Assembly (NCBI GenBank): GCA_951406725.2
Contig: OX597828.1
Location: 52,204,001-52,268,000 of the forward strand
Length of the DNA stretch: 64,000 nt
DNA from: Octopus vulgaris
Taxonomy: Eukaryota
Direction of reading: 5' to 3'
Shown: positions 10,689 through 59,290 of the stretch, one piece after another
Layout: every line of letters begins with the position of its first letter
Position numbering within the stretch: position 1 is the stretch's first letter
Notes under the pieces: generated by a model
Seen by the model: only the letters and a program-made list of their open reading frames with translations
The model's database searches: none
Told to the model about the DNA's origin: nothing
Made by a program: the position numbers and the translations under genes

Positions 10689-10807
10689 GCTTACGGCCAT
10701 ATCACGTTGAAAGCACCGGTTCTCGTCCGATCACCGAAGTTAATCAACGTCGAACTTAGTTAGTACTTAGATGGGTGACCGCTTGGAAAACCTAGGTGCT
10801 GCAAGCG
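10689..10807 (+). rRNA. 5S rRNA gene copy, dispersed, probably a pseudogene
   Basis: 119 nt GCTTACGGCCATATCACGTTGAAAGCACCGGTTCTCGTCCGATCACCGAAGTTAA...TAGTACTTAGATGGGTGACCGCTTGG...GGTGCTGCAAGC; helix I pairs with one mismatch; TTTT at 10816-10819. Confidence 0.9.
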
Positions 10808-30905: not shown

Positions 30906-31906
30906 ACCTTGGTGATCTGTCAGTTTTATATATTCATTGGCACACTGTGTGATTTGACGGTGATTTAACTGCTATTACCAGCCGGTTAATCGACCACATA
31001 GGTAACACCTTGTTGTTATTGCTGTTATTGTTCTTTAGCTCTGGGTTATTCATGGCAGAATAGATATTTGATCAAAGTTGTTCCCGCCATGATCTTCCAG
31101 TATTTTGTTCTAGAGTTAAAACGTACCAATTTATTGGATAAATCTATGTAGTCTTTGGTAGAAGGATTTTCGAGACGGTAAGTTATGGCTTAACGGAGAT
31201 TTGGCTGCTCTCTCTAGCAGACTGAACAACCTGCTTAGAGGCTCCTTGTTACCCTTGTTGCTGGTTTATGATTGTGCTGTTGGTGATAGCGGCAGTGGTG
31301 GTGGAATGTTTGGTAATGATATTAACGATGATGATGATGAGGATGATGATAGTGGTGGTGTTGGTGAAGGAGGTAGTTGTGGGGGTGGCACACGTGGTGG
31401 TGGAAATGGTGGCTTTGGGGGTCGGCGCTGACAGTGGTGTTGATTCTAACGACTATAATGAACGTGATGAGAAATATCTTGCTCCTGTTGATAGTTGAAG
31501 ATTAAATTGATGTACGATGTTGTTGATGCCGTTATTGTCCTTGCTGTTGTTGTTGTTGTTGTTGTTGTTGTTGATGAAGATTAAGATATTCTTGTGGCTG
31601 TTGATGTTGTTTTCCTTTGGTGTTCATTTCGGTGTTGCGTCGAAGCCCCTGATATCTTTGAGGATCAGAGAAATTTACCTTATATACTTCTTATATATGT
31701 GTGTATGTGTACGTACGTGTGTTTTATATATACATACATACATGCATACATACACACATACACATGCACGTATATACATATATTTATATCTGTATTTGTG
31801 TAACACTCTCCGTTTTTTCCCGTCTTTGTCTTCGTATACATCCCTTGCTTTCTTCCAAGGAATCTAATGCTTCCAAAGAATCGAAGATTCCTAGGAATCT
31901 TAGCTT

Positions 31907-32002
31907 AGTTTTCCCCTTGAGGCTGGCCAGATTGGAGCAATCTCGAGTATAACCAGCCGAAATTGCAAATATAATCTGGAACTCGACTGAGGAAAGAAAA
32001 CT
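31907..32002 (+). ncRNA. Candidate non-circularly permuted hammerhead in repeat 31800-32068
   Basis: GCAAT-C-TCGAGT / CCAGCC-GAAA-TTGC / ACTCGA-CTGAGGA plus extra helices; see findings. Confidence 0.55.
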
Positions 32003-32094
32003 CCGAATGACTCGTCCTTGTTTTCTTTGTATCGTCTATTTGGATGATTTGCGTTTTTGTCCCATTCGTATATATATATATATATATATATATA

Positions 32095-32151
32095 TCATCA
32101 TCATCATCGTCGTCGTTTAACGTCCGTTTTCCGTGCTAGCACGGGTTGGAC
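32095..32151 (-). mobile_element. RTE-type 3' tail fragment
   Basis: Minus strand TGTCCAACCCGTGCTAGCACGGAAAACGGACGTTAAACGACGACGATGATGAT: hairpin plus (GAT)n tail. Confidence 0.55.
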
Positions 32152-32438: not shown

Positions 32439-32508
32439 CCCCTTCATCAGCTGTCGCTAGCAGACACGTGTTTCGAAGGCAGAGACAGAACACGTAAGGT
32501 CAAGCTAG
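32439..32508 (-). ncRNA. Candidate non-circularly permuted hammerhead with intact core, in repeat 32268-32575
   Basis: ACGTGT-T-CTGTC / CCTTC-GAAA-CACGT / GACAG-CTGATGA-AGGGG; see findings. Confidence 0.7.
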
Positions 32509-33109
32509 GCCTTCCTACGAGAGAATTAAAATAAAATAAACTCGTAGAGGGGTAAACGAGCAAGAAAAAATGTAATATATATATATTTACATATTTTTCG
32601 AATTTGTGTCAATATATGTAGAATAATATATCAGTTGAATAAACTTAAGACATGGTCTAGTTTTTACATTTTTTAAAGACCATTATACATTATGGTATTT
32701 AAAAATTTTGTTTACAATTTTGAAGTGTGTTAAACATTAAATTTGCGCTTTCATACGTTCGTAGTAATTATCATATTTCAAAATGTATTTAACTGGCAGT
32801 TGAATTCTTGAGAATTGTAGTGAAATGACTGATTCCTTCCTTTTTATACCCTTGGAAGGATCCAACCAGCTGAATATTTGGAATACCATTTTGACCAATC
32901 CGCATGCAGCTTAAACGTCACGGTTCGCCGGGCGTACTGATATAACTGGCATAGCTCCCACCTTTATTTTAACCAATTAGCTTGCTGTTTACATGTAATG
33001 CTTTTATGAGTGAGCAAACTTAGTTGATTTCGTTTTTATTTCAAGTTAGTGGGAGTCTTCTATGATTTGTTTATATTCGTATGCTAAAAATATTTTTTAA
33101 TCCACATCA

Positions 33110-58599: not shown

Positions 58600-59290
58600 A
58601 GGTGTAGGAGTGGCTGTAGTAAGTAGTTTGCTTACCAACCACATGGTTCCAGGTTCAGTCCCACTGCGTGACACCTTGGGCAAGTATCTTCTACTATAGC
58701 CTCGGGCCGACCAAAGCCTTGTGAGTGGATTTGGTAGACGGAAACTGAAAGAAGCCTATCGTATATATGTATGTATATATGTATAACTAATGTAGGATAA
58801 AATTTTTTTCGGGAAAAAAATTCTTTCAATGGCCGGCATATCAAAAACTACCTTTAAAGGTTGAATTTATAAATAATTTACAAGATAAGGGCAAAAGGAA
58901 AATTCTAATGCCAAATATGCCGAAAAAAAGACAAGAATTGTCAATAACCATTATAATTTATGCGTCTCGAAACAAACCGATAGAAATTTCTAAAAAATTC
59001 GTTATTACCATATTGGTCCAATTTCGGGGTTAATTCATAAGAAATTTTCCCCTCTTCAGCGGCAAATACGCGAGATATAAGTGAGTATAGTAAGTATTTC
59101 ACTTATATCTCGCGTATTTGCCGCTGAAGAGGGGAAAATTTCTTATGAATTAACCCGAAATTGGACCAATACGGTCCAATACGAAAGAATGAAAGGCAAA
59201 CAATAAGTCCCTTGATCGATTTCTTCGACTAAAGACGGTGCTTCAGCATGGCCACAGTCACATGACTGAAACAAGTAAAAGAGTAAAAGA
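58600..59290 (+). mobile_element. SINE family A interrupted by a PLE-type insert (58787-59175)
   Basis: SINE head at 58600-58762 and tail at about 59200-59290 flank the insert. Confidence 0.8.
59011..59175. ncRNA. Inverted repeat encoding two head-to-head type I hammerheads
   Basis: Arms 59011-59084 and 59099-59171 differ by one C; each reads GCCG-CTGAAGA-GGGG..CCC-GAAA-TTGGACCAA-TA-(C/T)GGT. Confidence 0.85.

What the first reader, a model, noticed from the sequence alone, without database searches (positions are those of the whole stretch)
31907..32002. Second, unrelated S1-S3-S2 hammerhead whose stem II appears to be bridged by a fourth strand
Seen, plus strand: GCAAT (31937-41), C (31942), TCGAGT (31943-48); CCAGCC (31953-58), GAAA, TTGC; ACTCGA (31981-86), CTGAGGA (31987-93). 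Stem III is GCAAT/ATTGC with an AUC triplet, extended by CCAGATT/AATCTGG. Stem I is TCGAGT/ACTCGA. The two stem II strands do not pair with each other. Instead the upstream segment pairs with both: GGCTGG (31921-26) with CCAGCC, and AGTTTTC (31907-13) with GAAAACT (31996-32002). Five helices of 5-7 bp fall around exact core motifs within 96 nt. Inference: a multiply pseudoknotted HHR topology, or an auto-inhibited conformer.
Basis: partly seen in the sequence, partly recalled or inferred. Interest (0 to 1): 0.85.

Follow-up and report, generated by a model that had tools for sequence, protein, structure and literature searches.

The report
Split-core hammerhead ribozyme of Penelope retroelements
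This stretch is a damaged copy of a conserved RNA fold at the tail of Penelope-like jumping genes: it holds all the core letters of the self-cutting hammerhead RNA in a scrambled order, with one helix predicted to be completed by a strand from upstream, and it is likely the self-cutting RNA that part of the Naiad group of these elements was reported to lack, though cutting is untested.

Summary
The block order is Eckert 2023's type SGC, but stem II is never completed after CUGANGA (0 of 90 hits); its 5' strand lies upstream. The fold recurs, with compensatory changes, in several high-copy non-coding Penelope-like families of this genome, and behind Naiad-type reverse transcriptases in 5 of 8 metagenome loci with enough flank and, read by eye, in 10 of 52 published Naiad 3' ends; 6 more carry type CSG. 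Its fifth helix is probably an alternative register: intact copies close with a helix further upstream (31849-54/31994-99) stacked on a hairpin, which this copy has damaged by a 27-nt insertion. Best reading: a hammerhead opened between A9 and G10.1 that likely cuts element transcripts. Cleavage is untested and this family's partner enzyme was not found. The scan noted rearranged hammerheads in Penelope-like elements on other DNA before; I found the split form in no paper.

The parts
31791..32070 (+). 5'-truncated copy (about 280 bp) of non-coding Penelope-like family A, ending in a TA run
   Evidence: blastn against 30 other loci covers about 31781-32095; ends read
31849..31854 (+). IVa: 5' strand of the closing helix IV in the family register
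   Evidence: pairs with 31994-99; flush with Z; one compensatory pair between A and A2
31855..31920 (+). Hairpin Z abutting stem II; damaged in this copy
   Evidence: CCAAGGAA/TTCCTTGG in the family, 232 of 272 cells paired in 35 copies; here only 5 bp remain
31872..31898 (+). 27-nt insertion (direct plus inverted repeat of the Z 5' arm) not seen in the other copies examined
   Evidence: other copies run on at 31898 with the normal upstream letters (table 7); forms a competing hairpin
31907..31913 (+).
31921..31926 (+). Stem II 5' strand (G10.1 = 31921), supplied from upstream
   Evidence: 6 Watson-Crick pairs with 31953-58; 199 of 207 cells paired in 35 copies
31927..31933 (+). Helix Y 5' strand (counterpart of the type-SGC stem I-II interaction helix)
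   Evidence: two compensatory pairs between A and A2
31937..31948 (+). Block S: stem III 3' strand, AUC triplet (C17 = 31942, predicted cut 3' of it), stem I strand
   Evidence: two compensatory pairs in stem I between A and A2
31953..31966 (+). Block G: stem II 3' strand, GAAA, stem III 5' strand; joined to stem I by a 4-nt linker
31973..31979 (+). Helix Y 3' strand
31981..31993 (+). Stem I partner strand and core C3-A9 (CTGAGGA); not followed by stem II
   Evidence: core letters kept in 32-35 of 35 copies
31994..31999 (+). IVb: strand directly after A9
   Evidence: pairs with 31849-54; can also pair with 32020-27 or 31907-13
32020..32027 (+). Competing partner of 31994-32001 (local hairpin W), favoured in this copy
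   Evidence: -6.2 kcal/mol; chosen by the constrained fold of this copy
32439..32550 (-). Intact ribozyme of the same architecture in a sequence-unrelated family (B), CUGAUGA starting at 32450
   Evidence: element spans about 32575-32153; 976 candidates in G000

Best explanation
The stretch is one damaged copy of a conserved RNA fold in the 3' repeat of Penelope-like retroelements that is predicted to act as a hammerhead ribozyme whose backbone is opened between A9 and G10.1, and that would cut the element's transcript after C31942. Shown: the core letters; the order IVa-Z-II(5')-Y-III(3')-cut site-I-linker-II(3')-GAAA-III(5')-Y'-I'-CUGANGA-IVb; its recurrence in unrelated families; compensatory changes; its position behind Naiad-type reverse transcriptases. 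Inferred: stems I, II and III build the usual hammerhead core; helix Y and the 2-5 nt linker hold stems I and II together as in type SGC; helix IV and hairpin Z stack on each other and replace the A9-G10.1 link. It is the same closed ring of strands as types SGC and CSG, cut at a new place. Inferred role: cutting head-to-tail transcripts into unit RNAs (785, 832 and 905 nt for families A, A2, B) that a partner enzyme copies back, as proposed for retrozymes. This copy keeps the core, I, II, III and Y but has lost an intact Z, so it may cut poorly or not at all.
For: Chance: 2 hits against 0 in ten shuffles; 0 of 1600 shuffled metagenome flanks. Topology: of 90 distinct descriptor hits in 1.06 Mb of (family-enriched, non-independent) loci, 0 have stem II in place, 73 have an upstream strand of >=5 Watson-Crick pairs, 89 have C at 11.1, and N7 and H17 vary as the hammerhead allows. 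Covariation: B/C/E alignment, 20 of 38 pairs with a change on both sides, 94.8% paired, 0 of 500 shuffles, slid controls 36-46%; A against A2, 5 of 48 pairs, in stem I (2), Y (2) and IV (1). Independent loci chosen by protein alone: 5 of 8 with >=300 nt of 3' flank carry the fold on the sense strand; L224 and L225 have an N-terminal GIY-YIG hit. In G000, 11 of 30 Naiad-RT loci carry family D downstream on the same strand. IV plus Z flush in 10 of 16 representatives, 0-5% in shuffles, and chosen by constrained folding in 8 of 8 intact copies. By eye, 10 of 52 published Naiad 3' ends have the split form and 6 have type CSG. 5' breaks of TA-joined A/A2 copies: 5-6 of 39 at the predicted cut, 1-2 in the 5 nt upstream; about 13 at an ATC downstream against 1-2 at the same ATC just upstream (hand tally; P 0.001-0.004). 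Type-SGC and -CSG RNAs cleave in vitro (PMC10085705); one unpaired base 5' of stem II is known in PLE hammerheads (PMC4209133).
Against: No cleavage data. Eckert et al. report no insertion above 1-2 nt between CUGANGA and its stems, so no tested RNA has this break. Helix IV is the weakest part: no two-sided change in the B/C/E alignment; not flush in A2 (two U-U first), D, E or L231, and the test failed in 6 of 16. Two-sided changes in stem II rest on one row (family E) and are absent between A and A2; the A/A2 pair count is not above shuffles (274 of 500). The break test is not repeated in B/C: 1 of 35 at the cut, 3 upstream, 16 at a TA microhomology (hand tally); about 87 of 100 A copies run through the site, and stalling of the reverse transcriptase at the fold could give the same pattern. 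No PLE open frame was found attached to families A, A2, B or C, so their tie to Naiads rests on shared fold and element anatomy. 3 of 8 metagenome loci gave no descriptor hit (one looks like a decayed copy by eye). Folding energies leave out pseudoknot loop costs.
Confidence: 0.7

Rival explanations
1. The fold is real but no longer cuts: it descends from an SGC/CSG-type hammerhead and is kept as a recognition or pausing signal for the element's reverse transcriptase.
For: The A9-G10.1 break has no tested precedent; most copies run through the site; B/C show no break peak; PLE hammerheads can be weak in vitro (PMC4209133).
Against: Every catalytic core letter is kept across sequence-unrelated families while N7 and H17 vary within hammerhead rules and helices turn over completely; other Naiads hold intact type-CSG hammerheads or twister-like motifs at the same place (by eye).
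Confidence: 0.13
2. It is a switchable hammerhead: the strand after A9 chooses between helix IV (active) and a local hairpin, the first reader's fifth helix, or a helix reaching into the core (inactive), so that only some transcripts are cut.
For: Competing pairings of similar strength in A; a local hairpin after A9 in B and C; in family E helix IV can extend over G5-A9 (read); most genomic copies extend past the site.
Against: The competing helices differ from family to family and are not evident in L224, L225 or L227; circular or re-ligated templates also explain read-through. Overlaps with the best explanation: it adds regulation and does not change the active fold.
Confidence: 0.1
3. The active ribozyme forms from two copies, in a tandem transcript or in trans, one copy giving CUGANGA and another the stem II strand, as with dimeric PLE hammerheads.
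For: Canonical PLE hammerheads are proposed to work as dimers (PMC4209133); tandem arrays exist (8 units of about 832 nt).
Against: A single copy holds every strand, with a 4-7 bp stem III, and no palindromic stem III is needed.
Confidence: 0.05
4. The helices are chance complementarity inside a repeat, amplified by copying.
For: Within one family the copies are too alike to test pairing.
Against: The same order recurs in sequence-unrelated families and in loci chosen by protein only, with compensatory changes.
Confidence: 0.02

Closest known systems
Type-SGC hammerhead (HRIMA-1 and variants), Eckert et al. 2023, PMC10085705
   Same: Block order S-G-C; stem I joined to stem II by a short linker (3 nt there, 2-5 nt here); a helix joining the far ends of stems I and II; full core.
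   Different: There block C is whole, with stem II directly after CUGANGA. Here the stem II strand and the interaction strand sit at the 5' end, and helix IV plus hairpin Z take the place of the A9-G10.1 link. Type SGC was reported from metatranscriptomes and not from genomes of known organisms; this form has over a thousand DNA copies in an animal genome.
Type-CSG hammerhead (CSG-1, CSG-2), same paper
   Same: Same closed ring of strands, opened at another point; found in DNA.
   Different: Block C is whole and only two examples were published. By eye six nematode Naiad consensi carry this type, one with a single extra base between A9 and stem II.
Type I and minimal hammerheads in pLTRs of Penelope/Neptune elements (Cervera and de la Pena 2014, PMC4209133)
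   Same: Same position in the same class of element; some have one unpaired base 5' of stem II.
   Different: Ordinary three-way junction, short palindromic stem III, proposed to act as dimers. Neptune-type elements of this genome carry that ordinary form (read by eye).
'HHR_core' and 'HHR_half_core' notes in Naiad elements (Craig et al. 2021, PMC8557442)
   Same: Same elements and position; core words with the second half 35-50 nt away on either side.
   Different: Left without a structure there, and the clade is described as lacking canonical hammerheads. The fold given here accounts for several of those notes.
Non-LTR retrozymes (bioRxiv 10.64898/2026.07.22.740005)
   Same: Non-coding, head-to-tail units, each with a hammerhead, derived from PLE pLTRs.
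   Different: Defined by a type I hammerhead; descriptors for it would miss these families.

Membership tests
Hammerhead ribozyme class | Core C3 U4 G5 A6 N7 G8 A9, G12 A13 A14 A15.1, U16.1, H17 | tested here: met
   kept in 32-35 of 35 family A copies found by similarity
Hammerhead ribozyme class | Stem I flush with H17 and C3; stem III flush with A14 and H17 | tested here: met
   two-sided changes in stem I and stem III
Hammerhead ribozyme class | Stem II closing the core with G10.1-C11.1 | tested here: met
   as base pairs only, from an upstream strand: 73 of 90 hits with >=5 Watson-Crick pairs, C at 11.1 in 89 of 90
Hammerhead ribozyme class | Stem II strand covalently next to A9 (at most 1-2 extra bases) | tested here: not met
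   0 of 90 hits with >=4 bp in place; the rule is stated in PMC10085705
Hammerhead ribozyme class | Site-specific self-cleavage 3' of H17 | not testable with these tools
   only indirect: 5' breaks of genomic copies, suggestive in A/A2, not in B/C
Type-SGC hammerhead (HRIMA-1) | 5'-3' order of blocks S, G, C | tested here: met
Type-SGC hammerhead (HRIMA-1) | Short linker from stem I to stem II and a helix joining their other strands | tested here: met
   linker 4 nt here, 1-5 nt as counted in 16 representatives, helix Y 5-11 bp; Y covaries
Type-SGC hammerhead (HRIMA-1) | Uninterrupted block C (stem I strand, CUGANGA, stem II strand) | tested here: not met
Penelope-like element (non-autonomous) | Fixed 3' end, 5' truncation, partial tandem and inverted copies, microsatellite targets | tested here: met
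   features as listed in PMC8557442
Naiad clade | ORF with N-terminal GIY-YIG and C-terminal RT attached to the family of this finding | tested here: inconclusive
   none found for A, A2, B, C in the loci held; found for the same fold in family D (RT pieces) and in L224, L225
Non-LTR retrozyme | Non-coding head-to-tail units, each with a hammerhead | tested here: met
   A2 array of 8 units of about 832 nt on contig C6; two-unit copies of A and B
Non-LTR retrozyme | Type I hammerhead | tested here: not met
   order is S-G-C with a split block C
Non-LTR retrozyme | Circular monomer RNA | not testable with these tools
   only contigs were available

The most novel reading that the evidence does not exclude
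An active hammerhead ribozyme whose catalytic core tolerates a two-helix insertion between A9 and G10.1, forming a doubly pseudoknotted five-helix junction outside the six permutations thought possible. It is the standard self-cleaving RNA of a wide branch of Naiad retroelements (ctenophore, cnidarian, acanthocephalan, crustacean and cephalopod families) and of thousands of non-coding partner copies, and it arose by tandem-repeat-driven permutation from type-CSG/SGC hammerheads that other Naiads still carry.
Probability: 0.6. Interest if true: 0.88.

Novelty: new variant of a known kind. Interest (0 to 1): 0.8.

Why it matters
If it cuts, it overturns the working rule that CUGANGA and stem II cannot be separated, which limits hammerheads to six layouts, and shows a new place where whole helices can be put into the core. 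It would move non-circular permutations from obscure metatranscriptome RNAs into animal genomes, at over a thousand copies per family. It would also explain why Naiad retroelements seemed to lack hammerheads: searches assumed the ordinary order. The claim can be tested with a one-day transcription assay on RNAs of about 130 nt, and the descriptor can be run on any genome.

Tried and rejected
Rfam: no hammerhead family at gathering score or up to E 10. Ordinary folding cannot show the crossing helices; 7 of 200 shuffles fold as well as 31900-32010, so that z-score is no support. Reading G8-A9 from the upstream strand (GA before GGCTGG in this copy): rejected, most copies have GG there and family B has AG. 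A minimal hammerhead from CTGAGGA-AA-GAAA: no stem I or III partner by eye. The local hairpin after A9 as the conserved fifth helix: I first favoured it, then dropped it when the flush upstream helix IV appeared in B, C, E and the metagenome loci. Neptune-type PLE as partner: its 3' ends hold ordinary minimal hammerheads and none of 30 GIY-YIG loci had the fold downstream in sense; two apparent links (L032, L201) are separated from the element by TA or other repeats and unrelated DNA. The frame ending just upstream of family A looked like a PLE C-terminus from memory; no PLE protein hit supports it. Sequencing runs: no RNA holder listed; the four runs laid were contigs, which cannot show ends or expression. 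A broad Naiad alignment had no stretch conserved enough for a scan; the narrower one gave only 11 loci, 3 of them with under 100 nt of 3' flank. I did not build a covariance model, because two of the helices cross.

Full report
1. The observation. The three hammerhead blocks come in the order cut site, GAAA, CUGANGA, which is not a circular permutation. The strand after CTGAGGA does not pair with the CCAGCC before GAAA, while GGCTGG at 31921-26 does, with six Watson-Crick pairs. A descriptor that asks only for the core, this order, stem I of 5 bp and stem III of 4 bp found 2 sites in 264 kb (the window and 200 kb beside it), both in the window, and none in ten shuffles. Rfam finds no hammerhead here.

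2. The setting. The stretch lies in a 280-bp copy of a repeat (family A) with 1317 candidates in G000 and 1424 exact matches to a 15-nt anchor against 0 for the control. Copies share a 3' end at TA runs, are cut short at the 5' end, and often form partial tandems or carry an inverted copy. These are the Penelope-like features listed by Craig et al. (PMC8557442, passages). Units are non-coding: about 785 nt in A, 905 in B and 832 in A2, which forms an eight-unit array. The match of family D to the Octopus Naiad consensi suggests an octopus-like host; that is an inference.

3. The same fold in unrelated families. The second hit, on the minus strand at 32450, has different letters but the same order. 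Following it gave families B, C1-C4 and E, and A gave A2. Over 1.06 Mb of loci, enriched for these families and not independent, 90 distinct hits had stem II in place 0 times and an upstream strand of at least five Watson-Crick pairs 73 times; C stood at 11.1 in 89, position 7 took all four letters and position 17 took C, U or A (the descriptor itself excludes G at 17). In a 12-row alignment of B, C and E, 20 of 38 pairs change on both sides, 94.8% of cells pair, 0 of 500 shuffles reach this, and slid partners give 36-46%. There the two-sided changes in stem II come from the one E row, and helix IV has none. Between A and A2 five of 48 pairs change on both sides, two in stem I, two in Y and one in IV; with only two subfamilies the pair count is not above shuffles (274 of 500), the cell count is.

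4. The fifth helix. In intact copies a hairpin (Z) ends directly before the upstream stem II strand, and the segment directly before Z pairs with the strand directly after A9 (helix IV). Both reach four Watson-Crick pairs with gaps of 0-1 nt in 10 of 16 representatives, against 0-5% of shuffles; the test fails for A2, one C3 copy, both D copies, E and L231. With the core and stems I and II held open, folding picks IV and Z in 8 of 8 intact copies.

5. Link to Naiad elements. Craig et al. say Naiads lack canonical hammerheads and mark some as HHR_core or HHR_half_core. I read the last 420-490 nt of 52 of the 54 Naiad consensi in their File S5 by eye (the ends of Ptep and Cmel were not seen, and motifs further upstream would be missed). 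Ten show the split form (Bfor with a very short stem I, 3_Chem, Amil, Aacu, Anas, 2_Movir, Plae, EuTe, Obim, Ovul; IV is unclear in the last two), Esco looks like a decayed one, six nematode entries show type CSG, and Smim shows S-G-C order with about 3 nt after A9. These parses were not computed. Computed support: the Octopus-type motif has 386 matches in G000 against 0 (family D), RT pieces lie upstream of it, and 11 of 30 Naiad-RT loci of G000 carry it downstream on the same strand. Relatives of that RT fetched 11 metagenome loci by protein alone. Three have under 100 nt of 3' flank; of the other eight, five carry the full fold in sense with a 6-bp upstream stem II, one looks decayed and two show nothing; 0 of 1600 shuffled flanks hit. 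L224 and L225 have open frames of 914 and 924 aa with GIY-YIG at the N-terminus (L225 just under Pfam's cut-off; L229 has no such Pfam hit). For families A, A2, B and C no attached frame was found.

6. Indirect test of cutting. If RNAs begin at the cut, truncated copies should stop there. Hand tally of the first 100 rows (39 distinct A/A2 loci joined to TA runs): 5-6 begin at the cut, 1-2 in the five positions upstream, about 13 at an ATC 10-12 nt downstream against 1-2 at the same ATC just upstream (P 0.001-0.004). B and C do not repeat this: of 35 loci 1 is at the cut, 3 at +2, 3 upstream and 16 at a TA microhomology. About 87 of the first 100 A copies run through the site. The result is suggestive for A only and could come from stalling at the fold.

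7. How it most likely works. Inferred: stems I, II and III form the usual hammerhead core; the upstream strand gives G10.1; Y and the short linker hold stems I and II together; IV and Z stack outside the core in place of the A9-G10.1 link. Joining the ends of a type-SGC or type-CSG RNA gives one ring of strands, and this form is that ring opened after A9. Head-to-tail repeats, which these elements make, are a known route to such permutations (PMC10085705). Cutting at successive copies would release unit RNAs for reverse transcription; re-ligation to circles would explain copies that run past the site. That a single extra base at this spot can raise activity in a viroid hammerhead is recalled, not read; the unpaired base in PLE hammerheads is from PMC4209133 (passages).

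8. What is known. Eckert et al. (PMC10085705; parts 1-6 of 8 read; one supplement search; figures not seen) define six permutations by treating CUGANGA with its two flanking strands as unbreakable, validate SGC and CSG in vitro, and found none in genomes of known organisms apart from one GCS candidate. Perreault et al. 2011 (passages) list core insertions of one or two bases, none of this kind in what I saw. PMC13725137 (passages) mentions variants with additional helices; in one of its sources, PMC10162972 (passages), I found no description, and I did not check its reference 13. The 2026 retrozyme preprint (abstract and passages) uses type I models only; its supplements are closed. Nine searches found no paper on a split block C or on permuted hammerheads in Naiads; the library lacks most subscription journals. 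Earlier notes of this scan mention a type-CSG RNA, rearranged hammerheads in Penelope-like elements, and twisters in Naiads on other DNA; I saw only their summaries, after forming this reading, and cannot tell whether they describe the split form.

9. Verdict. Real, conserved and widespread; it works like a hammerhead by every sequence test but fails the contiguity of block C, so it is filed as a new variant and not as type SGC. The copy in the finding is damaged; intact copies should be tested. Confidence that the fold is a self-cleaving split-core hammerhead 0.7; interest 0.8.

Noticed in passing
window 32439-32550 (-), element about 32575-32153: Family B ribozyme of the same architecture, intact, top copies 98-99% alike, so a better test object than the finding itself.
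   Followed up: yes
window 34348-33146 (-): Decayed Neptune-type Penelope ORF (RT then GIY-YIG, 31% to the L087 protein); the family B copy appears to sit in the TA run at its 3' end.
   Followed up: partly
PMC8557442 File S5, nematode Naiads: Six consensi carry clean type-CSG hammerheads by eye, a type published from two examples; one has a single extra base between A9 and stem II. One spider Naiad has S-G-C order with about 3 nt there.
   Followed up: partly
PMC8557442 File S5, bivalve, hemichordate and some cnidarian Naiads: Other conserved 3' motifs at the same place: one twister-like by recall and two that I did not assign. Earlier notes of this scan report twisters in Naiads.
   Followed up: no
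L229:24-4058 and L228: Naiad-type ORF of 1344 aa with a C-terminal ubiquitin hydrolase domain after the RT (Pfam UCH, E 2.6e-26), followed by the split hammerhead; L228 has a similar motif by eye.
   Followed up: partly
G000 C16:20838796 and many others: A young Neptune-type PLE with 781-aa open frames in many copies, carrying an ordinary minimal hammerhead-like motif by eye.
   Followed up: partly
G000 C6:85539761-85545547: Eight head-to-tail units of family A2, about 832 nt each, a retrozyme-like array.
   Followed up: partly
G000 C1:84106814-84106848: An inverted junction that starts at the predicted cut and uses the stem I complement, as fold-back priming from a cut RNA end would give; one case.
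   Followed up: no
L192:2050-2213 (+): Family E, a single copy seen, in which helix IV can extend over the core letters G5-A9.
   Followed up: partly
families A, A2: A GTAAGT splice-donor-like word just past the 3' tail, where Penelope elements have a 5' UTR intron, and a shared small hairpin and short motif about 150 nt upstream of the ribozyme.
   Followed up: no
window 10689-10807 (+): 5S rRNA gene copy (Rfam 100.2 bits).
   Followed up: no
window about 59010-59120: Ordinary-order hammerhead-like hit on the minus strand inside a long inverted repeat; probably a repeat junction.
   Followed up: no
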